Source: Planctomycetota bacterium
GTDB lineage: Bacteria; Planctomycetota; PLA2
Length of the DNA stretch: 64,000 bases
Direction: 5' to 3'
Assembly (NCBI GenBank): GCA_021776785.1
Contig: JAJFFF010000043.1
Location: 4,196-68,195, forward strand
Shown: positions 2,461-22,496 of the stretch, in pieces
How positions within the stretch are numbered: position 1 is the first letter of the stretch
Layout: the number at the start of each line of letters is the position of its first letter
Translations under genes and position numbers: made by a program
Notes under the pieces: generated by a model
Told to the model about the DNA's origin: nothing
Databases searched by the model: none
What the model saw: only the letters and a program-made list of their open reading frames with translations

Positions 2461-4059
2461 ATGGACCGTCAAACCTGGGAGCGCGATGTCTACGGGCCCG
2501 CGCGCGCTAAGCACTCCGAACGCCGGGACTCGTTTCAAACGTCGAGCGGAATTCCGCTGGAACCCGTGTACGGCGACGGGCCGTTCCCCGGGGAGTACCC
2601 GTACGTGCGCGGCGTGCAGCCGACCATGTATCGCGGGCGCTTTTGGACGATGCGGCAGTACGCCGGATTTACGTCGGCCAAGGCGAGCAACGAACGGTAC
2701 CGCGCTCTGCTCGCGCAGGGCGCACGCGGTCTGTCGGTCGCGTTCGACTTGCCCACGCAGATCGGCTACGACTCCGATAGCCCCGAGGCGTTTGGCGAAG
2801 TCGGACGCGTCGGTGTGCCCATCAACTCGCTGCACGACATGGAAGTGTTGTTCGACCAGATCCCGCTCGACAAGGTGACCGTGTCGATGACGATCAATTC
2901 GACGGCGAGCATCTTGCTGGCGCTGCTGATCGCGGTTGCGAAACGGCGCGGGATTGACCCGTCGGCACTCGGCGGCACGATCCAAAACGACATCTTGAAG
3001 GAGTACATCGCGCGCGGGACGTATCGTTTTCCCGTCGGGCCCTCGATGCGCCTGATCACGGATACCTTTCGATACTGCGCGGACCACGTTCCGCGTTGGA
3101 ATCCGATCTCAATCAGCGGGTACCACATTCGCGAGGCCGGCGCGACGGCGGCGCAGGAGGTCGCGTTCACGCTGGCCGACGGGATCGCGTATGTCCAGGC
3201 GGCTCTCGACGCCGGTCTGGATGTGGATCGATTCGCCAGTCGGCTGTCATTTTTCTTCAACGCGCACAACAACCTGTTCGAGGAGGTCGCGAAGTTTCGC
3301 GCCGCCCGACGGATGTGGGCCAAGATCATGAAGGAGCGCTTCGGCGCCAAGAGCGAGCGCTCGTGTTGGCTTCGGTTCCACACGCAGACGGCGGGCTCGA
3401 CGCTGCAGAGCCGGCAGATTGACTGCAACGTCGTGCGTACCACGCTGCAGGCGCTGTCGGCCGTGCTCGGGGGCACGCAATCGCTGCACACCAACGGGCG
3501 CGACGAAGCGTTGGCGTTGCCGACCGAAGCGAGCGCTACGCTGGCGCTGCGGACGCAGCAGGTGATCGCGCACGAAAGCGGTGTCGCGGATGTTGTCGAT
3601 CCGCTCGGCGGCGCGCCGTTCATCGAGGCGCTCACCGACGAGGTGGAGGCGCGCGCTCAGGCATTGATTGACCGCATCGACGCCATGGGGGGGGCGGTTT
3701 CGTGCATCGCCTTCATGCAGGGCGAGATCGAGCGCAGTGCCTATCAGGCGCAAAAGCGAATCGAATCCGCCGAGGATGTGGTCGTCGGCGTGAATCGGTT
3801 TGAAGAGGGCGACGGGGCCCAACCGGAGCTCTTGGCGATCGACGACGCGGCCTACACGAGCATCTGCGTACAGCTCAAGGAGATGCGGTCGCAACGTGAC
3901 GGCGCGGCGGCCCAGCACGCCCTGGACGCGCTCACGGCCGCGTGTCGCTCGACCGACAACCTGATGCCGCCGATTCTGGCCGCGGTGGAAGCGCACGCGA
4001 CCGTCGGCGAGATCTGTGCCGCGATGGAGTCGGTGTTCGGCGTGTACCAGCCCGGATAG
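2461..4059 (+). CDS. Methylmalonyl-CoA mutase family, catalytic (N-terminal TIM-barrel) subunit without a fused B12-binding domain
   Basis: Strong MCM N-terminal motifs: [63 protein letters not shown]. The 532-aa length matches a split-type large subunit. No cobalamin-binding DxHxxG domain in this ORF or elsewhere in the window. Confidence 0.9.
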
Positions 4060-4065
4060 ACGCGG

Positions 4066-7000
4066 TCACTTCACTTCGATTTCGCGAATGAGCGGCCATT
4101 TCTGCGGATCGATTTCATGAGTATCGATGCGGACCAGCCGCGCGGACCCCAGCGGCGCCGGGTCGATTGCAGCGATCCCGTTTTTTGGTTTGCCAAACCC
4201 GACGATGACGGTGCCGTCGTCGCGGGTCTGGATGAGCGCTACCGATTCTTGGGCCTCGACTTGTGCGCGGCCCAGCGCGAGCGTGAACCGAATCGGTTGT
4301 TCGGGGCGCGTGACTTCGATATCGCGCCAGACCACAAGTTGACCGCGCTCTGCGCGCAAGAGGACGCGCCACTTCCCGGCATGGGGCGCGCGCAGACGAA
4401 ACACGCCGCTTTCGCCGAGCAACGCTTCGCTTCGCTGCGAACCCTGTACTTGAAAACGCGGTGGCATGAGCAGCGCGTTCCAGCCTTTCGCGTTGCCTCC
4501 GGTAATCGTCACCAGACCCTCGACACTCGGTGCGCGAGCATCGGCGACAAGCAGATCATGCTTCGTCGTGGATCCGGCGCGTACGGTGCATGTGTGGGGA
4601 ATCGGTTCGGCGCCTAAGCGCGAGCGTACGCGTTGGGCTCGCGGGTGAATCTCTTTGTCGGTCCGTGTCACAAGCCACGGGCCGGGCGTGAGCGCGTCAA
4701 AGCGAAATGCACCGTTGGCGTCGCTGCGCTGGGTTTGCGCGAATCCGTCCGCGCGCGAGATCGCGACGATGACCCCTGGAGCGGCTTTTCCGTCTTCGGT
4801 GCGCACGCGCCCCGCGATCGACCCGCCGCGTGTGATTTGCAGCGGCACGTCGTCGCCGACCGTTGCGTCGAACGCGCGTATGTCGGAACTCGCCGGAGCC
4901 AGTCCATCGGCTTCCGCGCGTACGACGAACCGTCCCTGGCCGCGCAGGGTGAGACGGTACGCTCCGTTCTTGTTGGTGCGCGTTTGGGCTGTCGGGCTTC
5001 GTTGGGATCGCACCGGGAATCTGTTCACCGTGACTATGCGGTCGGTCGGCGTCGCCTTGTGAAGCGTAACGCGCGCGTCGGCGACCGGTTTCCCGTTCGC
5101 CGTGACCGTACCGCGTATGCCTGGAAGTTCTTGAAGTTGCGCTTGCGCGTCGGCAGGGGCGGTTTCGGACGCGTAAGGACCGAGTGTTGCCAGCGCATGG
5201 TGATCCGCGTCGACGATGACCATGAACGCTCCCGCGGGCAACGGGACCTTGGCAGCGCCGTCAGCGCCGGCCTCGACATCGTCGATCGGGAGATCGAACT
5301 CGGCGTCGGGGCGCCGCATACGTACGCGGAACGTGCTCACCGCGGCGCCCTTCGTACCGGTCGCGCGAACGGTCATGTACCGAATTTTGGAAAGGCGAAG
5401 CGTGATCGTCGCTCCCGTTGCGCGGACATCAGTCCGGCGCGCCGCACCCCAGCGGCCCTCGGGATCGCGCACCTCGATGATGTAGACCGCGCCTTCCTCG
5501 GCCTCGATCTGAAACGTCCCATCGTCTTCGACGGTGGTTCCTCCGCCGCCTTCTGTGTTGTCGCCGACAAATTCGTAGGACAACTCGACGCCGCTCGCAG
5601 GTTTGCCTTCCGGGGTCAGAGCAACGCCTTGAATCGTCGCGTTCGCCGGTTTGGCTTCGAGCCTAACGATCACCCCGGCGGTCTCGCGGCCCGCGTGAAT
5701 TTCGGCCGGTGCATGCGTGCCGTTCCAGTAGTCGGCGGCTTCTACCCAGACGCGCTGCGAACCGATCGGGATTCCGGTGATCCGGAAGCGGCCATCGGCG
5801 TCCGTTGCGGTAAACGGTTGGGCCGCCACAGCCGCAAGCGGGGCATGGCGCAGGTGGTTGATATCGGCGTCGGTAAACGGGCGTTGGCTCCATCCGACCT
5901 GCGCGTGCGCAACGGGCTTACCTTCTTGATCGACGACGCGACCGACGAGCGAGCCGCCCGGTTCGAGAGCAATGTCGCCCAGGGCGGTTCGGGAGTCGCG
6001 CTTCGCCTGCGTGCGCATGGTGCGTGTGGCATACCCGTCGGCGCGAAACGAAAGATCGAGGACGGTCATGTTGTCTTTGATCTTGAGTGCGGCAACGAGC
6101 CGACCGTCAGCGCCGGCCCTCAACTCGATGATTTCGCCCGCATGGCGGATGTGGACGTCGCATCCGCTCACCGCGTTCTTGTTGGTGTCGACGACGCGAA
6201 AAGAAACGGACGAGGTCGGCGCGGCGATCGGGTTCGCGCCCGGCGCGGCCGGTGTGGAGCGCCGCGCTCGCGACGGCTCGATGCTCTCGCCGTCCTTCGA
6301 TTTAGGCACGGCATGTTTTGCGTCCGTGTCATTCGATCTTGCGTCCGCGGCGCGGGTGCGACGCGTCTCCGTGCGCGTCGGCGTGTCACTCCACGGCGCG
6401 CGGTCCGATACGTGCCATCCGAGCACGAGAAGCGCGACCACCGCGCCTCCTACGAGAAATTTTGTAGTTGTCGACAAGGCCACGGCTCCTCCAAGAGAGA
6501 GTGTTGTTCCCATGGCATCGAGGGTCGGTACGGTGAGGGCCGCGAGCGCGTTGTGCCAGCGCTTGCGATCGCCGGCGTGGCGGGCGTCCAGCGCTTGACG
6601 GAGAAGCGTCAGTCCACGTTGGATTCGCCAACGCACGGTTCCCGGCGGCGTACTTTGTTTCCGCGCGATGTCCGCAGCAGTCCAATCGCGGTAGTAGCGA
6701 AGGAGCAACGTGGTGCGGAACGGCTCTTCCAAGTTCATCACCAGCTCGGTGAGCATTTGGTGCGACTCGAGTTCGGCGAGGATCCTGTCCGGCGTGTCGG
6801 CTTGCCGATCCGGTTGGGCGACGGCGTGTTCGCGTCGACTCCGGCGGCGATTGGTTCGCGCGCGCATGCGCGCCTTGTTGCCGAGCACACGCGCAAGCCA
6901 CGGTCGCAGCGGACGGTCGGCGCGCGGGGGCTTTTCCAGGGCGGCGAGCCACGTTTCCTGTACGACGTCATCGGCCTCGGCGCGATCCCGAACCAGTCGG

Positions 7001-7077
7001 CGCGCGAGCGCGCGTGCCCATGAAGCGTGCTTGAGCAGCTCCTCGGGTCCGATCAGGGGTTCGTCGCCTCGATGCAT
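4066..7077 (-). CDS. ECF (sigma-70 group 4) sigma factor fused through a single TM helix to a large extracytoplasmic domain built of carboxypeptidase-regulatory-like beta-sandwich repeats
   Basis: Start reassigned to the ATG at 7077 (MHRGDEPLIGPEELLKHASWARALA). The ORF-track start at 7824 would overlap the epimerase gene on the other strand and its first 249 codons are R-rich noise. Sigma r2 (DDVVQETWLAALEK) and r4 (LLLRYYRDWTAADIARKQSTPPGTVRWRIQRGL) motifs, then a hydrophobic segment FLVGGAVVALLVLGW, then about 750 aa with repeated DADGRFRITGIPIG / NGAYRLTLRGQGRF / NGAFRFDALTPGPW motifs. Confidence 0.8.
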   Translation of the reverse strand: MHRGDEPLIGPEELLKHASWARALARRLVRDRAEADDVVQETWLAALEKPPRADRPLRPWLARVLGNKARMRARTNRRRSRREHAVAQPDRQADTPDRILAELESHQMLTELVMNLEEPFRTTLLLRYYRDWTAADIARKQSTPPGTVRWRIQRGLTLLRQALDARHAGDRKRWHNALAALTVPTLDAMGTTLSLGGAVALSTTTKFLVGGAVVALLVLGWHVSDRAPWSDTPTRTETRRTRAADARSNDTDAKHAVPKSKDGESIEPSRARRSTPAAPGANPIAAPTSSVSFRVVDTNKNAVSGCDVHIRHAGEIIELRAGADGRLVAALKIKDNMTVLDLSFRADGYATRTMRTQAKRDSRTALGDIALEPGGSLVGRVVDQEGKPVAHAQVGWSQRPFTDADINHLRHAPLAAVAAQPFTATDADGRFRITGIPIGSQRVWVEAADYWNGTHAPAEIHAGRETAGVIVRLEAKPANATIQGVALTPEGKPASGVELSYEFVGDNTEGGGGTTVEDDGTFQIEAEEGAVYIIEVRDPEGRWGAARRTDVRATGATITLRLSKIRYMTVRATGTKGAAVSTFRVRMRRPDAEFDLPIDDVEAGADGAAKVPLPAGAFMVIVDADHHALATLGPYASETAPADAQAQLQELPGIRGTVTANGKPVADARVTLHKATPTDRIVTVNRFPVRSQRSPTAQTRTNKNGAYRLTLRGQGRFVVRAEADGLAPASSDIRAFDATVGDDVPLQITRGGSIAGRVRTEDGKAAPGVIVAISRADGFAQTQRSDANGAFRFDALTPGPWLVTRTDKEIHPRAQRVRSRLGAEPIPHTCTVRAGSTTKHDLLVADARAPSVEGLVTITGGNAKGWNALLMPPRFQVQGSQRSEALLGESGVFRLRAPHAGKWRVLLRAERGQLVVWRDIEVTRPEQPIRFTLALGRAQVEAQESVALIQTRDDGTVIVGFGKPKNGIAAIDPAPLGSARLVRIDTHEIDPQKWPLIREIEVK

Positions 7078-7230
7078 AGAAGGTACTTGCCGCGCTTGGT
7101 CAGAGTGTTGGCGGTATTTTTTGATTCGTCGCCTGAAGCGTACGAGAACACCGTCCCGCGCGCTTAAATCCGGCCGCCAGGCGTCGAATGGGCCCTTCGC
7201 GGCATTCGTTTTTTCATCCCTCCCGGGGAT

Positions 7231-7668
7231 GTGAATAATGCGCCTGTGAAAAACATCAACCATGTGGGCGTCGCGGTCGCCGATCTTGAGGCCGCGCGCG
7301 CGATCTGGGACGAGCTGCTCGGGCAGACGCCCGACGTCGAGCATGTCGCCACGCAGCGCGTTTTTGCCGCGATGTATCCGTGCGGGATCGAGTTGATCGC
7401 GCCGGAAACTGACGACAGTCCGATTTCGAAGTTTTTGGCCAAGCGTGGGAGCGGCATCCACCACGTCACGATCGAAGTCGATGACATTGATGCGCAACTC
7501 GCGCGTTTGGCGAATCGCGATGTGCGCCTGATCAACAAGTCGGCCGTTCCCGGCGTTGGAGGCAGTCGCGTTGCGTTCCTTCACCCTGCCGCGGCCGGCG
7601 GCGTTTTGGTGGAACTCAAAGAGACCGCCAAGCAAGACAAGCACGGGGAGTCCGGCAGCGATGAATAA
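7231..7668 (+). CDS. mce: Methylmalonyl-CoA epimerase (glyoxalase/VOC family)
   Basis: 145 aa. VOC-fold motifs [14 protein letters not shown] and [14 protein letters not shown]. Its stop TAA overlaps the next gene's ATG (ATGAATAA at 7661-7668). Sits in the propionyl-CoA pathway cluster. Confidence 0.8.
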
Positions 7669-9190
7669 CCGAGAAGAGTTGCACCGTCGGCGCGAGGCTT
7701 CGCTGCTGGGCGGCGGGATGAAAGCGATTGAGAAACAGCACGCCAAGGGCAAGCTGACCGCGCGTGAGCGCATCGATTTGTTGCTCGACCCCGGGACGTT
7801 CATCGAGATCGATCCGTTCGTCACTCATCGCTGCACCGACTTCGGGATGGCTGCGAAAAAGATTCCCGGCGACGGCGTGATTACCGGGCACGGGCTTGTG
7901 GAAGGCCGCGCCCTCTTTGTGTTTTCGCAAGACTTCACCGTGTTCGGTGGATCGCTCAGCGGCGCGTATGCCCAAAAGATCTGCAAGATCATGGACCTGG
8001 CGATGAAGGCGGGCGTGCCCGTGGTTGGGTTGAACGACTCCGGTGGTGCGCGCATCCAGGAGGGCGTCGAGTCGCTTGGCGGGTACGCCGACATCTTTTT
8101 GCGCAACACACTGGCGTCCGGCGTCGTGCCGCAGATCTCCGCGATATTGGGGCCGTGCGCCGGGGGCGCCGTCTACTCGCCCGCGATTACGGACTTCGTT
8201 TGCATGGTCGAGAACACGAGCTACATGTTCGTTACCGGGCCCAACGTCGTCAAAACCGTCACGCACGAGGAAGTTTCGTTTGAGGACCTTGGTGGTGCGG
8301 CGACGCATGCCGGCAAGTCCGGCGTCGCGCATCTCACCGCTCCCGACGACGCCGCGTGCCTCGCGCAGGTCCGGCGGCTCCTTAGCTACATGCCGCTCAA
8401 CAACCGTGAGGATCCGCCGACGGTTGCCTGCGACGACGATCCCAACCGCATGGACGAGGCACTTGACACCATCGTCCCGGCCGATCCCGAAAAGCCTTAC
8501 GACATCAAAGACGTCGTCTCCCGTGTTGTGGACAAGGAGTCGTTTTTTGAAGTGATGCCCGAGTACGCCGGCAACATCGTGGTTGGCTTTGCTCGTCTCG
8601 GCGGGCGCGCGATCGGCGTGGTCGCAAACCAGCCCGCGTACCTTGCTGGCGTTCTCGACATCGACGCCAGCCTCAAGGGCGCGCGTTTCGTTCGCTTCTG
8701 CGACTGCTTCAACATTCCGCTCGTCACGTTTGAGGACGTTCCCGGTTTCTTGCCCGGCACGAATCAGGAGTGGGGCGGCATCATCAAACACGGCGCGAAA
8801 CTTCTCTACGCTTATTGCGAAGCCACCGTGCCGAAACTCACCGTCATCACGCGCAAAGCGTACGGCGGCGCCTACGACGTCATGAGCTCCAAGCACATTC
8901 GCGGCGACTTCAACTTTGCTTGGCCCAGCGCGGAGATCGCCGTTATGGGCGCCAAAGGCGCTGCCGAGATCATCTTCAAACGCGACATCCACTCGCCCGA
9001 AGACGAAGCGCGCTACACCGAAGAGTACAAACAGAAGTTCGCGAACCCGTTTATCGCTGCTGAGCTCGGCTACATCGACGACATCTTCGAGCCGAGGTTC
9101 ACCCGTCCGCGCCTCATCTCCGCCCTTTCGATCATGGCCACCAAAGTCGACCGAAACCCACCCAAAAAACACGGCAACATCCCCCTATAA
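7661..9190 (+). CDS. pccB: Propionyl-CoA carboxylase beta chain / methylmalonyl-CoA carboxyltransferase (acyl-CoA carboxylase CT subunit)
   Basis: Start taken at ATG 7661 ([19 protein letters not shown]). Classic carboxyltransferase motifs: [49 protein letters not shown]. The ORF-track start at 7556 would overlap mce. Confidence 0.9.
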
Positions 9191-10375: not shown

Positions 10376-11890
10376 GTGCCGATTCGAAAAGTCTGTGTCG
10401 CGAATCGCGGCGAAATCGCGGTCCGAGTGATCCGGACCCTGCGCGAGATGGGGATTCGGTCCGTCGCCGTTTTTTCCGACGCCGATCGGCGCGAACTGCA
10501 TGTGCGCGCCGCCGACGAAGCGTATCGAATCGGACCGGCCGCGCCCGGTGAATCGTATCTGCGCGGTGACGTGATCATCGCGACCGCGGTGGCAGCGGGC
10601 TGCGACGCCGTCCACCCGGGGTACGGATTCTTGAGCGAGAACGCGGCGTTCGCCGGCGCCGTCGAAGAGGCGGGCCTCGCGTTCATTGGTCCGACCGCCG
10701 CGACGATTGCGCAGGCGGGCGACAAGATCCAAGCGCGCGTCGTGATGAAAGCGGCGGGCGTGCCGGTGATCCCCGGCAGCGATTCGCCCGAGCCCGACGT
10801 CGCGTCCGCCAAAACAATCGCCGACGCGATCGGGTACCCGGTCGCGCTGAAAGCCGTCGGCGGCGGCGGCGGCAAAGGCATTCGCATCGTGCACGAAGCC
10901 GCGGAGCTGAAGTCGGCGTTCACGCGCGCGTCGTCCGAAGCGGAGACCGCGTTTGGAAACGGTGCGGTGTACGTCGAAAAGTTCCTCGTGCGTCCGCGCC
11001 ATATCGAAATCCAAGTGCTGAGCGATACGCACGGCCATCACTTTCATTTCGGTGAGCGTGAGTGCAGCATTCAACGCCGCCATCAGAAGCTCTTAGAGGA
11101 AGCGCCGTCGCCGACCGTTGACGCAACGCTTCGTGCTGCGATGGGTGCCGCCGCCGTGAAAGCCGCGCGCGCCGTGAACTACCGCGGCGCAGGAACCGTG
11201 GAGTTCTTGCTCGACCAAAGCGGGGAGTTTTACTTCCTCGAAATGAACACCCGCATTCAAGTGGAGCACCCGGTAACCGAGCTTTGCTACGGCATCGACC
11301 TCGTGCGCCAACAGGTGCGCGTCGCGGAAGGGCGCGAGCTCAAGTTTGTGCAAGATGACCTCCAACCCGTCGGACACGCGATCGAAGCGCGGCTCACGGC
11401 GGAAGATCCGGGCGGCGGATTTCTTCCGCAGACCGGCACGGTGCGCGCTGTGCGCATGCCGGAAGGGCCCGGCGTTCGGATCGACTCGAACCTGTACCCC
11501 GGGCAAGAGATCACGCTGTTTTACGACCCGATGATCGGTAAGGTCATCGTGCACGGACGCGACCGCGAGCACGCCATCGCCCGCCTCGAACGCGCGCTGA
11601 CTGAGATGCGTTTGGTCGGAATCATGACCTGCGCCCCGCTCCTGCGCGCCGTGTTGAAAGACGACGCTTACCGGCGCGGCGACGTCGACACCGGATACTT
11701 GGAACGCTTCGTCGAAGAGGTCGATTGGCAAGCGCTGCCCGAAGTGAACGATCTCCCGGCCGAACTCCCGGCCGTGCTGACGGCCGTGCTCTACGCGCAC
11801 CAACAAAAGGGCGCCAGCAAGGCGGTGGTCGCGGATCGCGCCGCGCGCAGCGAGTGGCTGACGGCCGCCCGCGCGGAGATGATGCGATGA
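10376..11890 (+). CDS. accC: Biotin carboxylase subunit of acetyl/propionyl-CoA carboxylase
   Basis: N-terminal KVCVANRGEIAVRVIRT, ATP-grasp GGGGKGIRIV and EMNTRIQVEHPVTE motifs. 504 aa. Its stop overlaps the BCCP start (ATGA at 11887-11890). Confidence 0.9.
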   Translation: MPIRKVCVANRGEIAVRVIRTLREMGIRSVAVFSDADRRELHVRAADEAYRIGPAAPGESYLRGDVIIATAVAAGCDAVHPGYGFLSENAAFAGAVEEAGLAFIGPTAATIAQAGDKIQARVVMKAAGVPVIPGSDSPEPDVASAKTIADAIGYPVALKAVGGGGGKGIRIVHEAAELKSAFTRASSEAETAFGNGAVYVEKFLVRPRHIEIQVLSDTHGHHFHFGERECSIQRRHQKLLEEAPSPTVDATLRAAMGAAAVKAARAVNYRGAGTVEFLLDQSGEFYFLEMNTRIQVEHPVTELCYGIDLVRQQVRVAEGRELKFVQDDLQPVGHAIEARLTAEDPGGGFLPQTGTVRAVRMPEGPGVRIDSNLYPGQEITLFYDPMIGKVIVHGRDREHAIARLERALTEMRLVGIMTCAPLLRAVLKDDAYRRGDVDTGYLERFVEEVDWQALPEVNDLPAELPAVLTAVLYAHQQKGASKAVVADRAARSEWLTAARAEMMR

Positions 11891-12408
11891 AGTATTACGC
11901 GAAAGTCGGCGCGCGCGAGTTTGAATGCACGATGTCTGAGGATGACGGAGCGTTGTTTGTCGAGGTGGACCAAACGCGCTACCGCGTCGATCTCGCCCAC
12001 ATCGAAGCGTCCGCGTCGTACACGCTGCTCGTGGACGGACGCTCGTACGAGTTTGCGTTGCACGAAGATGAAGACGGGATCGAACTCTCGGGCGGCGCTG
12101 GGTTGTTTCGCGTGTGCGTCGAGGACGCGCGCACCCACGCGGCGCGCGCGATGGTCAGCGCCGCGGGAGGGCCGGCGGGGCCGCGCCTCGTCAAAGCCGC
12201 GATGCCCGGAATCGTTCGTGAATTGCTCGTCGAGGACGGCGCGGTCGTAACGAAGGGCCAACCGCTTCTGATTCTGGAAGCGATGAAAATGCAGAACGAA
12301 ATTCGCGCGGATGGCCCGGGCACGGTCACCCGGGTGCACGTCAAGGCGGGCGCCACGGTGGTCAAGGGCGAAAAGCTCCTCGAGCTTGAATCGCCGCCGT
12401 CGCCGTAG
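11887..12408 (+). CDS. Biotin carboxyl carrier protein (biotin/lipoyl attachment domain)
   Basis: Start at ATG 11887 (MKYYAK), overlapping the accC stop. C-terminal biotinyl domain with the EAMKM biotinylation motif (ILEAMKMQNEIRA). The ORF-track start at 11725 lies inside accC in another frame. Confidence 0.8.
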   Translation: MKYYAKVGAREFECTMSEDDGALFVEVDQTRYRVDLAHIEASASYTLLVDGRSYEFALHEDEDGIELSGGAGLFRVCVEDARTHAARAMVSAAGGPAGPRLVKAAMPGIVRELLVEDGAVVTKGQPLLILEAMKMQNEIRADGPGTVTRVHVKAGATVVKGEKLLELESPPSP

Positions 12409-12498: not shown

Positions 12499-15009
12499 GT
12501 GCCGCGCGCTTTTTGGGTTGTTGTGATCGTTTTGGCCGCCGTCGGGGCTGCGGTGTTGACGCGATGGGGCCCGGCGCAGCAGAGCGACCCGAGTTATTTT
12601 CAGGTGCCGCGCGAGTCGCGGGCTTATGTCGGTTCGGTGTTTCGCGCGGGCGTGGCCGCGCCGGGGATTTCCGTTCACCTCCTCGAAAACGTGATCGACG
12701 GGGCGCGCTTTTCGACGACGACCGACGCGTCGGGACGGTTTCAGTTGGAGTGGCGGCCGACGCGGACACACCTGCGCCAAAAGTTGGTGCTCTTAGCGGA
12801 GCTTCCCGACGTGCCGAAGCCTGCGGCCACCGGTCCGAGCACGGGCGTCGTGCAAAAGGCGCGCGCCGGCGAGAACCGCATCGATCTCGCGCCTGCGGTT
12901 TCGTGGTCCGGCCGAACGTCCGGAGGCAGTTCGGTGGGCGTGGTGTGGGCCGGCACGCGTGGCAGCGGCGCCGTCACCGAGGGCGCGGGGCACCTTCCGC
13001 GAAGCGCGCCCGCGGTTGTCCTCGGATTGGCGGACGGATGTGCGCCGCGTTGGCAGACCATGCGCGCGCACGCGGACGAAACAGAATTCGTGCTTCGTTT
13101 ACGCGCGGGCGTCGATGTGTCCATCACGGCGCGGGATCCGTTTGGGAAACCGATCGTCGGCGCGGTCGCGCGACTCGCGGGCACGACCGACATCGCCGCC
13201 GCGCTTCCGCAGTTTCAGACCGACGAAGGTGGTGTCGCGGTCTTGAAGCATCAGTCCGACGGCGACTACATCTCGGTTCGGATGGAAGCGGAAGGATATC
13301 TCCCGGTCCGCGCTGGGGCGTGGCCGGGCCTGGACAACGAAGTCATCTTGTGGCCCGCGCGCACTGTGGAAGTGACGGTGTGGGACGCGTGGAATCAACG
13401 CGGCATCGACAACGCGGGCTTCGACGTCGAACTCTCCGAGGAGCGGAAAGGTCGTTGGCTAGGTCGGAAACTGGGAAGCACGTCGCGACCGATTCTCATG
13501 GCGCCCGGCAAAACGGTGGGGACGTTTCGCCTGCTGTTGCCGCAGTGCGCGTTGGAACTGACGGCGAACGCGACGGGATACTCCACGGAAACGGCGTCGA
13601 TCGGCGCGAACGACGCCCAGGCGCGCATCCGTCTCACGCCGCCGCGACGTCGACACCGCGCTGCGCACTTGGTCCTCATCGCGCCCGATCAAGTCGGCGA
13701 TCTACCGCTCGTCTTGACCGCGGACGACGGGGAATGGGGGCGGCGCGCGCGTTTGAAGGGCGGTCGCGCACGTATCCTCGTCAAGCCGAACACGAAACTG
13801 AAGTTCGCGTCGACACGCGCGGACGGCGGCCAGTGGATCGCACAAACGTCGGTCGAGCCGGTCGCTCCCGGCAAAGAACGCGAAGTGCAAGTCGCGCTCT
13901 TGCCGGCGATTGCGTTGACCGTCCGCACCAATCCGCCCGTCACGGGCACGGTGTATCTAAGCGACGCCGCCTATGAGGACACGTCCAACGCCGAGAGTCG
14001 TCCGCTGATCGATGGGCGCGCGACGTTCGCTGCGCGCCCGCTGCGCGTCATGCGCGTGCGAGTTGTGCCGGACGGAAACTACTTCGAAGAACGTGCCGAA
14101 TTCGTCACCGCCGATACTGATGAGGAGCGCGGGATCGATCTGATCTCCGCCGCCGGGTTCGAGACAACGGTCCGCGAGTTTGAATCGGGCTTACCGGTTT
14201 CGTTTGCGCGCGTTCGTGTCTGGGAGCCGACGGCAAACGGGCGCCTCGAGCTGCGCTTGCCGCCGCGCGTGTCGTTTGCGGACGCAAACGGCGTCGTCCG
14301 CGTCGTCGGACTGAGGCGCGGCGAGATGGCGTATGAGATCGATGCGCCGTATCTAACCGTGCATCGCGGCGGTGTGGTTCGGCTCGACGAAGGCGTCGTC
14401 AAGAAACTGCCGGGCGTGACGTTGCCGCCGCAGTCCCGTTGGTCGGGCATGGTCGTCGACGAGCTTGGCCACCGACAAGTCGGAAAGAAACTCGCCGTCA
14501 TGCGACCCGAGGTTTATCGCCTGAAGTTCGCCAACGGCGGCGAACGTCGTTTGTTTAACCTGACGTCGATCGCGTTGCCGACGGCGTGTGCCGATCGTGA
14601 CGGAAACTTCTCCGTACCCGACCCGTGGGTGCCCGACACCGATATCGCGGCGCTTAAGGTGGGGCGCGAGAGCCTGCTGGTGGTTCTGTCGGAGGGCAGT
14701 TCGAAGTTTGCGCATACTGTGATCACCGCGCGCAACCTCGCCGAAAACGACGGCAAGGCTGCGATCGGTGAGGGCGGGCGCGTTCAGATCTTTCTCAATG
14801 GCCGGGTGAACGGTGTCTATCTGCTTTTGCCGGGCGGTGTCAACGCGGTGCTGTTGCGCGGCGACCCGTCGATGACCGTGCGCCCGCTGCCGGTGCACCT
14901 GCCGGGGGGAACGCACACGTTGCACGTGCAAATGCGGGACGGGCGCCAGGCGACGACGACGCTCAATTGTCCGCCCGGCGAAATCGTCGATTGGCACGCC
15001 TTTCCCTAG
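12499..15009 (+). CDS. Membrane-anchored hypothetical protein with carboxypeptidase-regulatory-like beta-sandwich repeats
   Basis: GTG start. N-terminal signal anchor FWVVVIVLAAVGAAVL. Repeats with TDASGRFQLEW and CADRDGNFSVPDPW motifs. 836 aa. Confidence 0.6.
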   Translation: MPRAFWVVVIVLAAVGAAVLTRWGPAQQSDPSYFQVPRESRAYVGSVFRAGVAAPGISVHLLENVIDGARFSTTTDASGRFQLEWRPTRTHLRQKLVLLAELPDVPKPAATGPSTGVVQKARAGENRIDLAPAVSWSGRTSGGSSVGVVWAGTRGSGAVTEGAGHLPRSAPAVVLGLADGCAPRWQTMRAHADETEFVLRLRAGVDVSITARDPFGKPIVGAVARLAGTTDIAAALPQFQTDEGGVAVLKHQSDGDYISVRMEAEGYLPVRAGAWPGLDNEVILWPARTVEVTVWDAWNQRGIDNAGFDVELSEERKGRWLGRKLGSTSRPILMAPGKTVGTFRLLLPQCALELTANATGYSTETASIGANDAQARIRLTPPRRRHRAAHLVLIAPDQVGDLPLVLTADDGEWGRRARLKGGRARILVKPNTKLKFASTRADGGQWIAQTSVEPVAPGKEREVQVALLPAIALTVRTNPPVTGTVYLSDAAYEDTSNAESRPLIDGRATFAARPLRVMRVRVVPDGNYFEERAEFVTADTDEERGIDLISAAGFETTVREFESGLPVSFARVRVWEPTANGRLELRLPPRVSFADANGVVRVVGLRRGEMAYEIDAPYLTVHRGGVVRLDEGVVKKLPGVTLPPQSRWSGMVVDELGHRQVGKKLAVMRPEVYRLKFANGGERRLFNLTSIALPTACADRDGNFSVPDPWVPDTDIAALKVGRESLLVVLSEGSSKFAHTVITARNLAENDGKAAIGEGGRVQIFLNGRVNGVYLLLPGGVNAVLLRGDPSMTVRPLPVHLPGGTHTLHVQMRDGRQATTTLNCPPGEIVDWHAFP

Positions 15010-15037: not shown

Positions 15038-16054
15038 GTGGGCCGCATCACCGCAGGATCGGCGCGCCGCATCCTCGCGGTCTCTCGTTTGGCGCAGCAT
15101 CTTTCCGTTCGCGTGAACAATGGGCGGCGTGCACGTACCATTGGGCGCGTGCGCGAACGTGATTTAGACGAATTCAACTCGATCTTTAAACGATCGATCA
15201 TTCCCACCATTGAAGTCGAGAAGATTGAGGTCTCGACCATTCTTGTGCTGGCGGATTTCTCCGCCACCTCGCAGTCGTGCGTGGACGTGGCGCAAGCGCT
15301 GGCGCGTCGGTTCGCCGGCGCGCGTGTTTGCATTCGATTTTTGCTGCACGAAGGGGACGTCGCACACCGCGCCGAAGCCGAGCAAGCGTTGGATAGGTGG
15401 AACGCCGACGAAAAGAGCATTCTCGTCGGAGATCCGGCCGGATCCATCGAGGGCATGTTCGCGGGCAAGCCGCCGTCGATGGTTGTGGCGCCGACGCCGT
15501 TTCGCCGCCATGACCCGACGCCGACGAGTGATGCCGCCGGCGCCTTCGTCGATCAATTGCTGGTCGCGACGCCGGTTCCGACGCTGCTGCTGCGCGGCAA
15601 AACCGACGAGTCGATCTTTCAATCGATCCTCGCGAAGATCCCCGGCGGTCGCCACGAGTTGATCGAACAGTTCTCGTTCGCCTTTGCGTTGTGCCCGCCG
15701 GGCGGGAAGGTGCGGCTGTTGCACGTCGTCGAAGCCGAACGTCTCAACGAGCTGGCCGAAATCTTAGAGGTCACCCCGGGCATCGACACCGACGAAGGTT
15801 CCGCTGAGCTGCTGCACGCGATCGAAATGCGCATGAACCACCTCCTGCGCGGGGCGCTGCGCACGGGCAAGGATGCCGCGTTCGAGGTCGTCGCCGATCT
15901 TAAGGTCGGGGACCCGTTCAAAATTGTTCCGGCGGCGGCTGCGGACTGCTCGATGATTATCTTGGGGTCTGCGACGAGCCACACGGAGTTCCTGGACTCG
16001 CGCGCCTATCAACTTATGAAAGCGCTGCCGGGCCTTCCGGTCTTGGCGCTTTAG
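15038..16054 (+). CDS. Universal stress protein family protein (tandem UspA domains)
   Basis: Two USP-like halves (ILVLADFSATSQ..., KVRLLHVVEAE...GDPFKIVPAAAADCSMIILGS). The true start may be downstream of 15038, since the first ~55 codons are R-rich. Confidence 0.55.
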   Translation: MGRITAGSARRILAVSRLAQHLSVRVNNGRRARTIGRVRERDLDEFNSIFKRSIIPTIEVEKIEVSTILVLADFSATSQSCVDVAQALARRFAGARVCIRFLLHEGDVAHRAEAEQALDRWNADEKSILVGDPAGSIEGMFAGKPPSMVVAPTPFRRHDPTPTSDAAGAFVDQLLVATPVPTLLLRGKTDESIFQSILAKIPGGRHELIEQFSFAFALCPPGGKVRLLHVVEAERLNELAEILEVTPGIDTDEGSAELLHAIEMRMNHLLRGALRTGKDAAFEVVADLKVGDPFKIVPAAAADCSMIILGSATSHTEFLDSRAYQLMKALPGLPVLAL

Positions 16055-16063: not shown

Positions 16064-17389
16064 GTGGAAACCATCTTTTTCGCGTCGTTGCTCATCGCGA
16101 CGCTCCTCTGTCTCGCGTTCGAAGTGTTGCCGAAAGCCGTGTTGGCGCTTGTCGTCGCGGGCATCAGCTTGTTCGCCGCCATTGCGTTCGGCATGAAGTT
16201 CGGCGACGGCCACGGCGGCGGCCATCTCATTCCCGCGCCCGTGCAACTGATTGAGTGGCCCACACTGGGCGTGATCATCGGGAGCTCGATCTTTGTCGAG
16301 ATCGCGGCGCGCTCCGGCATCTTTACCTGGTCCGCGATCCGGCTGCTCAAGGCGAGCAAGGGCGATCCGTGGAAGCTGCTTTTGCTGTTGGGCGTGCTGA
16401 CGTTGCTGTTTAGCGCGTTCCTCAACAACGTGACCGCCATGATCATCGTCGGCTCGCTGACGGTGGTGGCGTGCAAAAACCTAGGACTTGACGCGAAGCC
16501 GTACCTCCTCACCGAAGCGTTTTTGACCAACGTCGGCGGTCTGCTGACGCTGATCTCGTCGTTGCCCAACATCATCCTCGGGCAGGTCGCCGGGATCTCG
16601 TTTCTCCGCTTTTTCCTGGTCGCCGCGCCGTACTGCCTCCTTGCATCCGCCGCGACGCTGATTCTCGCGCGCCGCATCTTTAAGATTCAGCCGTTTCGCG
16701 ATGAGGAAAAACGTAAACACGCGGAGCAGCGCGTGATGGAGTTCGACGAGTGGGAGACCGTCTCGGACCGCCGCTTTTTTAACGCGGCTTGGTTCGTGAC
16801 GGGAGGCGTCGTGGTCCTGTTCGCGCTGCAGAGCTATCTGCCGGTGTTTAAGAGCGAGCACCTTGGGTTGCAGTTCGTGGCCTTTTTGGGCGCGACCGTG
16901 ATGCTTCTCCTGCGCCCCAAAGCCGTCGAGGAAGCGCTGCGCAAAGTCGAGTGGTCACTCGTTTTTTTCTTTGTCGGGTTGTTCGTGCTGATCGGCGTCT
17001 GCGAGAAAGCGGGCGTCCTCGCGATCATGGGGAAGGGGATCACGGCCCTGATCGACGGCACAGGGATTTATGCGTCCGCGATTTTGGTGTGGGTCACCGG
17101 CATTTTGAGCGGGTTGACGGATAACGTGCCGCTCGCGGCGATGCTGGGCAAGATGCTGGATCCGGCGGTCATCAAAGAGGACGTGTTTTGGGCCGCGATC
17201 ATTGGCGGCAACCTGGGCGGCAACATTACGCCGATTGGTTCGGCGGCCGTTGTGGTCGGCGTGACGTTGATGAAGCGCGAAGGGATCAAGATCACGTTCG
17301 TCGGTTTTATGAAGACCGCGGCGCCGTTTGCGATCACGCAGCTGATCATCGGATCGATCTACCTGCTGATCATCCGCACGCTACTTTGA
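16064..17389 (+). CDS. ArsB/NhaD-superfamily anion permease (citrate-transporter-like)
   Basis: 441 aa with about 10-12 TM segments and an internal repeat. Motifs SAFLNNVTAMIIV and GGNLGGNITPIGSAA are typical of the ArsB/NhaD/CitMHS permease fold. Lies 10 nt after the USP gene. Confidence 0.75.
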   Translation: METIFFASLLIATLLCLAFEVLPKAVLALVVAGISLFAAIAFGMKFGDGHGGGHLIPAPVQLIEWPTLGVIIGSSIFVEIAARSGIFTWSAIRLLKASKGDPWKLLLLLGVLTLLFSAFLNNVTAMIIVGSLTVVACKNLGLDAKPYLLTEAFLTNVGGLLTLISSLPNIILGQVAGISFLRFFLVAAPYCLLASAATLILARRIFKIQPFRDEEKRKHAEQRVMEFDEWETVSDRRFFNAAWFVTGGVVVLFALQSYLPVFKSEHLGLQFVAFLGATVMLLLRPKAVEEALRKVEWSLVFFFVGLFVLIGVCEKAGVLAIMGKGITALIDGTGIYASAILVWVTGILSGLTDNVPLAAMLGKMLDPAVIKEDVFWAAIIGGNLGGNITPIGSAAVVVGVTLMKREGIKITFVGFMKTAAPFAITQLIIGSIYLLIIRTLL

Positions 17390-19264
17390 TGGCGTTTCCA
17401 ACCGCCACCAACCACCCAGCACGGGGTGAAGACCCGTCGCGGCCGCGCGTTCCGCGGCCGCTTTCGCACCGTTTAAGAGCGCGCGAAAGTCGTCGAGCAC
17501 GTGGCCGTTGTCGCCGATATAGCTGTGGCCGCCGCTCACGCCCGACACGTCGATTGTGTCCATCCCGGGCACCGTGACCACGCGTCCAGCGCGGACTTCC
17601 CCCGCGACTTGGACGTTGCCTCGCAGACTACGCGACGCGACGAGCGCGTAGTCGTTCTTAGAAGCGTAGAGCGTCACGCGATGCGTCACGTTGACGAGAG
17701 CGGGTGCGATGTATTGCTCGAAAATATCGGCGTCGATGTCGGGCGCGGCCAAAATGACGTTCTTGTAGATGTTGGTGTGTTCGGATCCGCCGAGCGCCAA
17801 ACGGTCGAGCGCTTCGGTGAGGACGTAGCCGCCCATGGAATGGCCGACAAGGTAAATCGTTGCGGCGCCTGACTTGGCGCGCAGGTCCAGGAGGAACGCG
17901 GCGAGGTGACGCACCGCCCAACGGGCATGGCCCTTGTCGGCCTCATACATCGGGATCTCGCCCTGACTCGGCCACGAGTAGAGAATCGGCGCGCCGTCGA
18001 ACTGGACGTCCCATGCGATTTGCGCGGTGCGCCACACGGCCTCGCGAAACTCGACGTTGTAGCCGTGCACGAACACAAACGCGCGCTTGCCTTCCGACGT
18101 TGCCACCCGATCGCGGATGCCGCCAAAAAAGATGTCCTCCTCCTGCCGCTTGAGGCGCACCAGCATGATGTGCTCGTCGCGCTCGGGAAGAAGTTCGAGG
18201 CGCCAGATGCGCGGGCGCTCAATTTCGCCGGGTTCGTGGCCCGGCGGAATGCTCACGTCGCAGATCCCGACGTCGTAGCCGCGGGTCCGGACGTTTTCGT
18301 TTGTGCTTCGCTCCGTTCCGTACAGCGTGCCGAGACGTTCGTGTTCGCGCATGACCTGGAGCGTCTGGCGTGCCGTGAAAAACGTAAACACGAGCCAGGC
18401 GAGTGTGAGCGCGACCCAGACGTAGCGGCGCAACGCTACGGCCAAAAGTTTCGGCAATAAGATGACGCCAAACAACGCGAGTGCGACCCAACGGAACTGT
18501 GCGAATAGCCAGCCGCGGTCCGGCTTGAACGTGGCGCGATCGGTCGCAAAATACACGCGGACCAAACGTTCGCGGTCCGGCGCGCCGGTCTCGATTTCAT
18601 GAGCGAGGTCGGGTTCGTCGCTGAGCGGGGTCAACGGAGTCTCTCGATCGAGCGCGGCGAGCCAGTCTTGGATCTCGGGCACGTGGGGCAGCAGCTCACG
18701 CAACTCGCGCGCTGTGTTTACGGCCGCGTCCATGTCGTCCACCTGTACCGAGAGCAGCAAAAACTCGTGGTAGAAGCGCGCCGCCAGCGGAAACCAACCC
18801 AGGTCGCGTGCGCGTCGCGCCGCATCGTCGGCGAGCTCGCGCGCGGGCTTGCGTTGTTTGTCTTTGAGGAGGAGCGCGAGGCGAGCTTCATCGATGCGAA
18901 GGCGCAGGATCGGACCCGCCGCATCGATGGCGGCCAGCGCTTCGGTCGTGGACGCGCGGACCCACGCGGCGCGTGCGGTGGCATCGCGGTCGTCGGTGTT
19001 GCCGACGGCGCGCACGAGCTGCTCGTTTTGGCACGCGCGCGCCCACGCCAAAGCCGCTTGTGGCTCCCCGCGACCGATCAGTTCATCGGCGACAAGCCAC
19101 GGGCGCGCGTCGGCGCTTTTTGCAAGCGCGTCCAACGGCGCTCGATCGTCACCGCGTACGGCGGTCAGGACGGCGTCGACTTGTTCGCCCAACGGGCCAG
19201 CGGACGCACGCGCCGCCAGGGCCAACAAAACAAGCAATACCCACAAAGATCGCATCTGCCCCAT
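17381..19264 (-). CDS. Membrane-associated alpha/beta hydrolase (DUF900-type esterase/lipase) with N-terminal TPR-like region
   Basis: Signal peptide MGQMRSLWVLLVLLALAARASA, two TM helices mid-protein, and a C-terminal hydrolase domain with the GHSMGG nucleophile elbow (YLVGHSMGGYVL). Confidence 0.7.
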   Translation of the reverse strand: MGQMRSLWVLLVLLALAARASAGPLGEQVDAVLTAVRGDDRAPLDALAKSADARPWLVADELIGRGEPQAALAWARACQNEQLVRAVGNTDDRDATARAAWVRASTTEALAAIDAAGPILRLRIDEARLALLLKDKQRKPARELADDAARRARDLGWFPLAARFYHEFLLLSVQVDDMDAAVNTARELRELLPHVPEIQDWLAALDRETPLTPLSDEPDLAHEIETGAPDRERLVRVYFATDRATFKPDRGWLFAQFRWVALALFGVILLPKLLAVALRRYVWVALTLAWLVFTFFTARQTLQVMREHERLGTLYGTERSTNENVRTRGYDVGICDVSIPPGHEPGEIERPRIWRLELLPERDEHIMLVRLKRQEEDIFFGGIRDRVATSEGKRAFVFVHGYNVEFREAVWRTAQIAWDVQFDGAPILYSWPSQGEIPMYEADKGHARWAVRHLAAFLLDLRAKSGAATIYLVGHSMGGYVLTEALDRLALGGSEHTNIYKNVILAAPDIDADIFEQYIAPALVNVTHRVTLYASKNDYALVASRSLRGNVQVAGEVRAGRVVTVPGMDTIDVSGVSGGHSYIGDNGHVLDDFRALLNGAKAAAERAAATGLHPVLGGWWRLETPSK

Positions 19265-22362: not shown

Positions 22363-22496
22363 AGCGAGCGTAGGGTACCGCGCCGCTCCCGACGGTTCCG
22401 CCTTTTTGAACGGGCTCTGTTTTAAAACTCCCCGGGGTTTGACCGGCTGCGGCGGTTCGTTCGCCCTTCGCATGACGGCGAGCTTTGAAGAGGAGC

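What the first reader, a model, noticed from the sequence alone, without database searches (positions are those of the whole stretch)
4066..7077. One-polypeptide ECF sigma factor, TM helix and giant CarbopepD_reg-repeat ectodomain
A complete ECF sigma (regions 2 and 4 readable) continues without a stop into a short anti-sigma-like linker, a single hydrophobic helix and ~750 aa of carboxypeptidase-regulatory-like beta-sandwich repeats. That makes the sigma factor its own membrane-tethered sensor. The likely activation route is regulated intramembrane proteolysis or an ectodomain-binding signal. ECF sigmas with C-terminal extensions are an established class. An ectodomain of this size and fold, in a window with two further membrane-anchored CarbopepD_reg repeat proteins (12499-15009, 23264-25978), is unusual. 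It suggests a lineage-specific surface-sensing module. The gene is divergent from the propionyl-CoA module, and the 153-bp shared promoter region (7078-7230) may carry an autoregulated ECF promoter.
Basis: partly seen in the sequence, partly recalled or inferred. Interest (0 to 1): 0.65.

Follow-up and report, generated by a model that had tools for sequence, protein, structure and literature searches.

The report
Membrane-anchored ECF sigma factor fusion
This gene encodes a transcription-initiation (sigma) factor that is fused through one membrane-spanning helix to a large outward-facing stack of beta-sandwich domains. It belongs to a very large, unstudied family in uncultured Planctomycetota and Myxococcota, and these genes carry a shared promoter-like motif in front of them.

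Summary
Window 4066-7077 (-) is one uninterrupted 1003-aa gene. It encodes an ECF sigma domain (sigma2 aa 11-85, sigma4 aa 96-166), a conserved short amphipathic helix, one hydrophobic helix (aa ~205-224), a 60-aa disordered linker and about eight beta-sandwich domains.

The fusion is not an artefact. More than 100 full-length homologues (28-36% identity, ~99% coverage) share the architecture. The N-terminal sigma+TM module alone recovers 2037 clusters (50% identity level) at E<=1e-30, and most are 800-1190 aa.

- Only 3 of the 8 ectodomain modules pass the CarboxypepD_reg cut-off.
- No anti-sigma domain is detectable in the ~38-aa linker.
- The two other repeat proteins in the window are not close paralogues, and no neighbouring gene is conserved.

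A bipartite motif, CCAAC-N12/13-GCGGCA, lies 34-42 nt before the start codon in 16 of 23 family loci (0.15 expected) and in 3 held-out loci. In the window it is at 7088-7111 (-).

The most likely mechanism is a membrane-tethered pro-sigma that is released by regulated proteolysis and autoregulates, as in Pseudomonas putida IutY. This is inferred, not shown. I rate it a new variant of a known kind, of moderate interest.

The parts
4066..7077 (-). Complete gene for the 1003-aa sigma-TM-ectodomain protein (stop codon 4066-4068)
   Evidence: The identical 1003-aa product was called in NCBI and Logan assemblies.
6823..7047 (-). ECF sigma region 2 (aa 11-85)
   Evidence: Pfam Sigma70_r2, 43.3 bits against a cut-off of 24. 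AF2 helices have pLDDT >90. Mean identity to family members is 57%.
6580..6792 (-). ECF sigma region 4 (aa 96-166)
   Evidence: Pfam Sigma70_r4_2, 27.2 bits against a cut-off of 25.7. TIGR02937 covers aa 18-163. Foldseek matches SigL, AlgU, SigE and RpoE.
6532..6579 (-). Conserved post-sigma4 segment (aa 167-182) with the motif GDRxxWxxxL. It is predicted as an amphipathic helix at aa 171-182.
   Evidence: G169, R171 and W174 are >=90% conserved. AF2 helix pLDDT is about 76-89. It matches no Pfam family.
6406..6465 (-). Single hydrophobic, Gly-rich transmembrane helix (aa ~205-224)
   Evidence: Hydropathy analysis. AF2 helix at aa 202-225. Conserved in 112/119 and 128/130 relatives.
6226..6405 (-). 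Disordered juxtamembrane linker (aa 225-284), rich in Ala, Arg, Pro and Thr. It is a candidate site-1 cleavage region.
   Evidence: pLDDT <50. It is the least conserved and most gapped segment (13% identity, 19% gaps). The cleavage role is inference only.
4069..6225 (-). Ectodomain of about eight tandem beta-sandwich domains (aa 285-1003). D2, D5 and D6 are CarboxypepD_reg.
   Evidence: AF2 pLDDT >90. Per-domain Pfam scan. Colinear across 73 homologues, with about 1% gaps. Foldseek finds only generic tandem beta-sandwich proteins, TM-score <=0.12 normalised to the query.
7088..7111 (-). Bipartite promoter-like motif CCAAC(7111-7107)-N13-GCGGCA(7093-7088). CCAAC begins 34 nt upstream of the ATG, and GCGGCA ends 10 nt before it.
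   Evidence: It is the only exact match in the 64-kb window. The same motif sits at the same position in 16/23 family loci, against 0.15 expected, and in 3 held-out loci. It is the top non-training PWM class.
7078..7230 (.). Divergent intergenic region between the sigma-fusion gene and the methylmalonyl-CoA epimerase-like gene

Best explanation
The gene encodes a self-contained, single-pass (N-in, C-out) membrane-anchored ECF sigma factor, in effect a 'pro-sigma'. The sigma2-sigma4 domain sits in the cytoplasm. It is held at the inner membrane by about 38 residues of linker and a Gly-rich TM helix. About eight beta-sandwich domains project into the periplasm as the input or stability module.

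Proposed mechanism. A signal acting on the ectodomain exposes it to a periplasmic protease, which trims the protein down to the disordered juxtamembrane linker. A site-2 protease then cuts within the TM helix. The freed sigma domain binds core RNA polymerase and transcribes promoters of the type CCAAC-N12/13-GCGGCA, including its own, which would give positive autoregulation.

Shown here: the architecture, its conservation, the absence of a detectable anti-sigma domain, and the gene-linked conserved motif.

Inferred: the topology, the proteolytic release, and the assignment of the motif as the cognate promoter.
For: - Domain architecture and fold.
- The fusion is conserved in more than 100 full-length homologues and about 2000 clusters.
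- The TM helix is conserved.
- There is no partner anti-sigma gene and no conserved neighbour, so the protein must carry its own control.
- The ectodomain is colinear and conserved, and it is built from domain types typical of extracytoplasmic proteins.
- Some relatives end in a PDZ domain. One locus has an S41 (Prc/Ctp-type) peptidase gene 47 nt downstream.
- The motif is strongly enriched and position-locked. CCAAC-type -35 boxes are reported for other ECF groups, ECF128 and ECF213 (supplement of 10.1101/2019.12.11.873521).
- Precedent: IutY, a sigma-TM-periplasmic-domain hybrid, is activated by Prc and RseP (PMC5411451). ECF52, ECF53 and ECF48 are predicted to work the same way (PMC8999054).
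Against: - There is no experimental or expression data.
- No protease gene is consistently linked to the family. S41 appears in 1 of 7 contexts and S9 in another.
- The positive-inside rule at the helix flanks is not decisive: K+R averages 1.1 on the N-side and 1.5 on the C-side. No dedicated topology predictor was available.
- The -10-like block GCGGCA is unlike the common ECF CGT-type -10. The spacing to CCAAC (12-13 nt) is shorter than the usual 16-17 nt, so the exact promoter register is uncertain.
- No second strong site was found in the window or in about 200 kb of related loci, so no regulon is defined.
- The conserved GDRxxW helix has no assigned role in this model.
Confidence: 0.55

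Rival explanations
1. The sigma factor works while still membrane-tethered, with no proteolytic release, like ToxR or CadC-type membrane-bound transcription factors. Ligand binding or oligomerisation of the ectodomain would reposition the conserved juxtamembrane amphipathic helix (GDRxxW). In the off state that helix would mask the RNA-polymerase-binding surface of sigma4 or sigma2, acting as a cis mini anti-sigma comparable in size to class II (CnrY-type) anti-sigma peptides.
For: - The conserved helix directly after sigma4 has an invariant-like Trp and is confidently predicted, with pLDDT up to about 89.
- About 20 disordered residues between this helix and the membrane helix could give reach.
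- No protease is consistently linked to the family.
Against: - No precedent is known to me for an ECF sigma that functions while membrane-anchored. The only characterised hybrid, IutY, needs RseP.
- The helix matches no anti-sigma profile.
- I could not inspect model contacts. The sigma2/sigma4 arrangement in the model matched neither inhibited nor holoenzyme states well: best rmsd 7.1 A, TM-score 0.40 normalised to the target.
Confidence: 0.2
2. The hydrophobic segment is not membrane-spanning, or the orientation is reversed. The beta-sandwich region would then be cytoplasmic and act as a soluble regulatory extension, as proposed for WD40 or TPR extensions in ECF57 and ECF42.
For: The query's 19-residue hydropathy is moderate at 1.82. 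The flank charges do not follow positive-inside.
Against: - The family mean hydropathy is 2.19, and the segment is present in more than 94% of relatives at the same place.
- It is followed by a low-complexity linker and by domain types (CarboxypepD_reg, Big_1, SdrD_B-like, and PDZ in relatives) that are characteristically extracytoplasmic.
- A folded N-terminal sigma domain without a signal peptide is expected to stay inside the cell.
Confidence: 0.07
3. The conserved upstream motif is not the cognate promoter of this sigma. It would instead be the binding site of another regulator or sigma factor that controls all genes of this family.
For: The GCGGCA block and the 12-13 nt spacing are atypical for ECF -10 elements. 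No further sites were found in front of other genes.
Against: - The motif travels with the gene across unrelated genomic contexts in two phyla and keeps a fixed distance to the start codon.
- ECF sigmas commonly autoregulate (PMC7826278).
- Sigma2 and sigma4 are the most conserved parts of the protein, which fits a conserved target sequence.
Confidence: 0.2
4. The fusion is an assembly or frameshift artefact that joins a sigma gene to a downstream anti-sigma or surface-protein gene.
For: None found.
Against: The same continuous architecture occurs in more than 100 homologues from independent assemblies, at 28-36% identity over about 99% of the length. The identical protein appears in two assemblies. 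Both halves are predicted with high confidence in one frame.
Confidence: 0.01

Closest known systems
IutY of Pseudomonas putida (sigma/anti-sigma hybrid of a cell-surface signalling system, ECF243), PMC5411451
   Same: One polypeptide with an N-terminal cytosolic ECF sigma domain, a single TM segment soon after sigma4 and a periplasmic C-terminal domain. There is no separate anti-sigma gene. Activity requires removal of the periplasmic part and cleavage at the membrane by Prc then RseP. This is the model I adopt by analogy.
   Different: IutY is 374 aa with a FecR-type periplasmic domain, and it is paired with a TonB-dependent receptor gene (iutA). Here the protein is 1003 aa with about eight beta-sandwich domains. 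It has no FecR hit and no adjacent receptor, and it belongs to a different sigma clade with a different promoter motif.
Actinobacterial ECF52/ECF53/ECF48 sigma factors (e.g. SCO4117), PMC5826349, PMC8999054
   Same: [quoted passage not shown] Proteolytic release is proposed for them, and autoregulation was observed for SCO4117.
   Different: Those carry a zinc-finger (ZAS) anti-sigma domain between sigma4 and the membrane, and a carbohydrate-binding module. Here there is no zf-HC2 or other anti-sigma hit and no Cys in aa 1-305. The phylum also differs.
Planctomycetal ECF57 (formerly ECF01-Gob); supplement of 10.1101/2019.12.11.873521
   Same: [quoted passage not shown] There are several copies per genome, and CarboxypepD_reg proteins are noted in their neighbourhoods.
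   Different: ECF57 is defined by a fully conserved Cys pair (one in sigma2, one in sigma4), about 2 TM helices and WD40 or homeodomain-like extension domains. This protein has none of these.
Canonical ECF sigma / single-pass anti-sigma pairs (RpoE-RseA, SigW-RsiW)
   Same: A cytoplasmic sigma held at the membrane and a periplasmic sensor domain. Release is by site-1 and site-2 proteolysis. The sigma fold is the same.
   Different: The pair is two proteins, with inhibition through a ~70-90-aa anti-sigma domain. Here the link to the membrane is covalent and no anti-sigma domain is present.

Membership tests
ECF (group 4) sigma-70 family | Sigma region 2 and region 4 are present. Regions 1.1 and 3 are absent. 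| tested here: met
   Sigma70_r2 scores 43.3 bits (cut-off 24), Sigma70_r4_2 scores 27.2 (cut-off 25.7) and TIGR02937 scores 61.6 (cut-off 42.9). There is no r3 or r1 hit. The fold matches SigL, AlgU and SigE.
ECF sigma with fused transmembrane C-terminal extension (IutY-like hybrid) | Sigma domain, a single TM helix and an extracytoplasmic domain in one polypeptide | tested here: met
   Conserved in the family. The orientation is inferred, not predicted by a dedicated tool.
ECF sigma with fused transmembrane C-terminal extension (IutY-like hybrid) | FecR-type periplasmic domain and an adjacent TonB-dependent receptor with a signalling domain | tested here: not met
   No FecR hit. The neighbours are methylmalonyl-CoA mutase and epimerase genes.
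ECF sigma with fused transmembrane C-terminal extension (IutY-like hybrid) | Activation by site-1 and site-2 proteolysis | not testable with these tools
   This needs experiments. The only circumstantial evidence is an S41 peptidase gene downstream in one related locus.
ECF52/53/48 (ZAS-containing fused sigma factors) | Zinc-finger anti-sigma domain between sigma4 and the TM helix | tested here: not met
   No zf-HC2 or any other anti-sigma family at E<=0.01 in the linker or in 25 family N-termini. There is no Cys in aa 1-305.
ECF57 (Planctomycetes) | Completely conserved Cys pair in sigma2 and sigma4, about 2 TM helices, and WD40-like or homeodomain-like extension domains | tested here: not met
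   There are 0 Cys in the sigma domain here, and 151 of 255 relatives have none. There is one TM helix and no WD40 hit. The defining features are taken from the supplement read.
Class I anti-sigma domain in cis ('anti-sigma-like linker') | A helical bundle of about 70-90 aa that binds sigma2 and sigma4 | tested here: not met
   Only about 38 residues (aa 167-204) with one 12-residue helix lie between sigma4 and the TM helix. There is no profile hit. A short class II-like inhibitory peptide cannot be excluded.
CarboxypepD_reg (PF13620) repeat proteins | Tandem domains that match PF13620 above its gathering score | tested here: met
   The whole protein scores 124 bits. Taken individually, D2 scores 42.6, D5 41.2 and D6 43.8 bits (cut-off 32.3). 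D1 is sub-threshold, and D3, D4, D7 and D8 have no hit although they are beta-sandwich in the model.
Autoregulated ECF promoter | A conserved bipartite -35/-10-like motif upstream of the sigma gene across orthologues | tested here: met
   16/23 loci match >=10/11 positions, against 0.145 in shuffles and 0/23 in the distal control. The motif is also present in 3/3 held-out loci, at 11/11, 10/11 and 9/11 positions. Whether this sigma recognises the motif cannot be tested here.

The most novel reading that the evidence does not exclude
These proteins form a very large, previously undescribed class of one-component transmembrane sigma factors that need no anti-sigma domain at all. Control would come either from the membrane tether plus a conserved cis-acting GDRxxW helix that gates RNA-polymerase binding, with the sigma possibly acting while still anchored. 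Or it would come from a dedicated proteolytic route that reads the state of an eight-domain periplasmic rod. Their near-leaderless, family-specific promoter (CCAAC-N13-GCGGCA) would define a separate ECF group spanning Planctomycetota and Myxococcota.
Probability: 0.15. Interest if true: 0.75.

Novelty: new variant of a known kind. Interest (0 to 1): 0.42.

Why it matters
[quoted passage not shown] This gene is one member of a family with about 2000 clusters at 50% identity, in which the sigma factor is itself the membrane receptor and no anti-sigma domain is detectable. Only one such hybrid, IutY, has been studied experimentally.

The family is abundant in Planctomycetota and Myxococcota. These are phyla with very large ECF repertoires and few characterised members. 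Some genomes carry tandem copies.

The conserved promoter motif found here gives a direct handle for defining regulons in complete genomes. It also gives a simple reporter for testing whether release from the membrane is required.

The practical value is for annotation. These genes are currently labelled only 'sigma-70 family RNA polymerase sigma factor'.

Tried and rejected
1. Artefactual fusion. Rejected, because the architecture is conserved in more than 100 homologues.

2. Anti-sigma domain in the linker. No Pfam hit in the linker or in 25 family N-termini.

3. Functional module with the two other repeat proteins of the window. BLASTP shows only repeat-level similarity or none. There is no further sigma-like gene in the window (tblastn).

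4. Conserved partner gene. Seven contexts showed no shared neighbour.

5. Regulon search with a two-block PWM in the window and 20 related loci. Only the sites in front of the family genes score high. The next best window hit (41813-41836, 16.6 bits) lies inside a 1234-aa ORF.

6. Fold search of the full model. It returned only generic tandem beta-sandwich proteins (alpha-2-macroglobulins, pilins), with TM-score <=0.12 normalised to the query, and no functional lead.

7. Fold search of the N-terminal model, to decide between an inhibited and an open sigma conformation. Not decisive. I could not inspect model coordinates, so whether the GDRxxW helix contacts the sigma core remains untested.

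The window's own genome was not recovered. The first attempt, with a 32-sequence alignment, failed for lack of a conserved stretch.

9. Literature. No paper links CarboxypepD_reg to a sigma C-terminal extension. In the ECF classification 2.0 supplement this domain turned up only as a neighbourhood feature in the groups I could read (ECF54, ECF57, ECF216, ECF241). The tool shows only some occurrences, so I did not read every passage. The Jogler 2012 and Wiegand 2020 papers are not held.

10. Rfam and tRNA scans of the window found nothing.
Full report
**Observation**

The minus strand carries an ORF that is open from 7824 to 4066. The biologically supported start is the ATG at 7077, which gives 1003 aa.
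- The N-termini of the homologues align there, about 11 residues before the conserved EELLxHAxW.
- Independent gene calls in an NCBI contig of 132 kb and a Logan assembly give exactly this 1003-aa product.
- The sequence upstream of 7077 is covered on the + strand by a Glyoxalase-type (methylmalonyl-CoA epimerase-like) gene and a carboxyltransferase gene.

The gene is convergent with a methylmalonyl-CoA mutase gene, which ends at 4059. It is divergent from the epimerase gene, which starts at 7231 or 7246.

**Anatomy**

Pfam gives Sigma70_r2 (aa 16-79, 43.3 bits, cut-off 24) and Sigma70_r4_2 (aa 107-157, 27.2 bits, cut-off 25.7). NCBIfam gives the general ECF model TIGR02937 (61.6 bits, cut-off 42.9), and no specific subfamily reaches its cut-off. 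The nearest solved structure by sequence is M. tuberculosis SigL, E=7e-13.

AlphaFold2 was run on a 73-sequence family alignment (pLDDT 85.4, pTM 0.71) and on the N-terminal 245 aa (pLDDT 85.0). Together the models give this layout:

| Segment | Residues | Note |
|---|---|---|
| sigma2 helices | 11-85 | |
| Short variable linker | 86-95 | |
| sigma4 helices | 96-166 | |
| Extra helix | 171-182 | pLDDT 76-89 |
| Disordered stretch | ~183-201 | |
| Hydrophobic helix | 202-225 | |
| Disordered linker | 225-284 | pLDDT <50; rich in Ala, Arg, Pro, Thr |
| About eight beta-sandwich domains | 289-1003 | pLDDT mostly >90 |

I scanned the ectodomain domain by domain.
- D2 (aa 373-478), D5 (aa 651-748) and D6 (aa 749-848) pass the CarboxypepD_reg cut-off.
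- D1 is sub-threshold.
- D3, D4, D7 and D8 hit nothing.
- The linker region aa 160-290 hits nothing.

Foldseek of the N-terminal model finds ECF sigmas: SigL, AlgU, SigE, RpoE, SigW, SigK and CnrH. The full model only finds generic multi-beta-sandwich proteins, with TM-score <=0.12 normalised to the query.

**The fusion is real and common**

A word-indexed search found 399 proteins at E<=1e-5. More than 100 of the best 120 are 990-1120 aa, carry the same sigma plus CarboxypepD_reg domain list, and are 28-36% identical over about 99% of the query. Where the sources name them, they are called only 'sigma-70 family RNA polymerase sigma factor', from Planctomycetota MAGs and Kofleriaceae.

In a 73-sequence alignment the eight-domain ectodomain is colinear, with about 1% gaps. 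Identity to the query is 57% in sigma2, 45% in sigma4, 38% in the post-sigma4 helix and 18-36% in the ectodomain domains.

An exhaustive HMMER search with aa 1-235 alone (sigma, linker and TM helix) found 2037 cluster representatives at the 50% identity level with E<=1e-30.
- All of the best 150 have E<=2.4e-41.
- About 100 of those 150 are 800 aa or longer.
- 128 of the 130 that are long enough have the hydrophobic helix at the same position.

The module also occurs with other C-terminal parts. Myxococcota variants end in a PDZ domain. One group of about 400 aa ends in a conserved ...ECVQETMYAA.FP.P...YPF.F motif.

A glycyl-tRNA synthetase in the window is 82% identical to proteins of Planctomycetota MAGs and 62% identical to that of the cultured strain Pla163. 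The window therefore comes from an uncultured planctomycete.

**What is not there**

No anti-sigma family (zf-HC2, RskA, FecR, RseA and others) is detected at E<=0.01, either in this protein's linker or in the N-terminal 245 aa of 25 family members. Only about 38 residues separate sigma4 from the membrane helix, which is too short for a class I anti-sigma domain.

What is conserved there is the motif GDRxxWxxxL, with G169, R171 and W174 at >=90%. It lies on a predicted amphipathic helix. Its role is unknown.

There is no Cys in aa 1-305. This excludes the ZAS-type groups and the Cys-pair hallmark of ECF57.

No neighbouring gene is conserved in seven contexts. Some MAGs have tandem paralogues. 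One has an S41 peptidase gene directly downstream and another has an S9 peptidase.

The two other repeat proteins in the window are not close relatives of the ectodomain. The window holds no other related sigma gene.

**A conserved cis element**

I aligned the 160 nt upstream of 23 non-redundant family genes. This revealed CCAAC(A/G)(C/G)T-N10-GCGGCA(A/T)G.
- 16 of 23 loci match CCAAC-N12/13-GCGGCA at >=10 of 11 positions within 123 nt of the start.
- Shuffled sequences give a mean of 0.145 loci (maximum 2), and the distal control regions give 0 of 23.
- CCAAC always starts 34-42 nt before the start codon.
- Three loci fetched afterwards also carry the motif: L167 at 11/11, L165 at 10/11 and L166 at 9/11.

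In the window the motif is CCAAC 7111-7107 and GCGGCA 7093-7088, with the ATG at 7077. It is the only exact match in 64 kb.

A two-block PWM scan of the window and 20 related loci gave at least 18 bits only for sites in front of family genes. L163's own site scored 16.9 bits. The best non-family hit was also 16.9 bits, and the hits I checked were intragenic.

CCAAC-type -35 boxes are listed for ECF128 and ECF213 in the ECF classification supplement. The simplest reading is an autoregulated cognate promoter with a very short leader. That the sigma itself recognises it is an inference.

**Mechanism**

The closest characterised analogue is IutY of P. putida. It has a cytosolic ECF sigma domain, one TM segment and a periplasmic domain in one chain. 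It is activated when Prc trims the periplasmic part and RseP cuts at the membrane (PMC5411451). The review PMC8999054 predicts the same for ECF52, ECF53 and ECF48.

By analogy I propose a membrane-tethered pro-sigma that is released by regulated proteolysis and then amplifies itself through its own promoter (confidence about 0.55).

The rivals, with my confidence in each:
- A sigma that works while anchored, gated by the GDRxxW helix (0.2).
- A cytoplasmic, non-membrane reading (0.07).
- The motif belonging to another regulator (0.2, and compatible with either mechanism).
- An assembly artefact (0.01).

**Comparison and novelty**

Fused sigma-TM-sensor proteins are an established kind, so the finding is not categorically new. 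It differs from each described group.
- IutY has a FecR-type periplasmic domain and a TonB-dependent receptor partner. Neither is present here.
- ECF52/53/48 carry a ZAS domain. None is present here.
- ECF57 has a Cys pair and WD40 extension domains. Neither is present here.

In the passages of the ECF classification 2.0 supplement that I could read, CarboxypepD_reg appears only as a neighbourhood domain and never as a C-terminal extension. I found no paper that describes this architecture.

I therefore rate it a new variant of a known kind. It is one ordinary member of a very large, uncharacterised family. The value added here is the family definition and its promoter-like motif. Interest is moderate, at 0.42.

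Noticed in passing
window 2461-4059 (+), 7231-7668 (+), 7556-9190 (+), 10376-11890 (+), 11725-12408 (+): A propionyl-CoA / methylmalonyl-CoA gene set surrounds the sigma gene. It comprises MM_CoA_mutase, a Glyoxalase-type epimerase, a carboxyltransferase (Carboxyl_trans), a biotin carboxylase and a biotin-lipoyl carrier protein. The sigma gene interrupts this otherwise metabolic cluster.
   Followed up: partly
window 23264-25978 (+): A protein of about 905 aa (930 aa if read from the first TTG of the ORF at 23186) with an N-terminal signal-anchor-like segment (MTRKKRQWFVVLLLLVGAVLMM...). It has at least 8 CarboxypepD_reg stretches (228 bits) and a SpaA-like C-terminal domain. It is only distantly similar to the sigma protein's ectodomain (22% identity).
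   Followed up: partly
window 12499-15009 (+): An 836-aa ORF with one weak N-terminal CarboxypepD_reg match (43 bits) and no detectable similarity to the sigma ectodomain. I did not check whether it is membrane-anchored.
   Followed up: partly
L164 2774-5872, 6001-9108, 9155-10504; L162 3121-5928, 6001-9126: In other Planctomycetota MAGs the family occurs as tandem paralogue pairs next to further CarboxypepD_reg proteins. In L164 the pair is followed, 47 nt downstream, by a Peptidase_S41 (C-terminal processing protease) gene and then by a separate small ECF sigma and a vWA protein.
   Followed up: partly
L010 3953-6421 (Myxococcales MAG); proteins P0096, P0098, P0119: Myxococcota members of the family carry a PDZ domain at the extreme C-terminus of the ectodomain. 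This could bear on protease recognition.
   Followed up: no
proteins P0130, P0137, P0147, P0159, P0179, P0235, P0249: A subgroup of about 400 aa has the same sigma+TM module but a short ectodomain. It ends in a conserved motif resembling ...ECVQETMYAA.FP.P..GG.V.V.YPF.F. The domain was not identified.
   Followed up: no
window 39968-43672 (-): A 1234-aa ORF of unknown function. It contains the second-best (probably chance) match to the promoter-like motif, at 41813-41836.
   Followed up: no
window 21028-22470 (-): A class II aminoacyl-tRNA synthetase gene. By its homologues it is glycyl-tRNA synthetase, 82% identical to proteins of Planctomycetota MAGs and 62% to strain Pla163. This places the window in an uncultured planctomycete lineage.
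   Followed up: yes
window 1-64000: No tRNA gene and no Rfam family at gathering threshold in the whole 64 kb.
   Followed up: yes
window 17381-19264 (-), 16064-17389 (+), 15038-16054 (+): A DUF900 alpha/beta-hydrolase protein (626 aa), a CitMHS/ArsB-type transporter and a Usp-domain protein lie between the two repeat-protein genes. They were not examined further.
   Followed up: no
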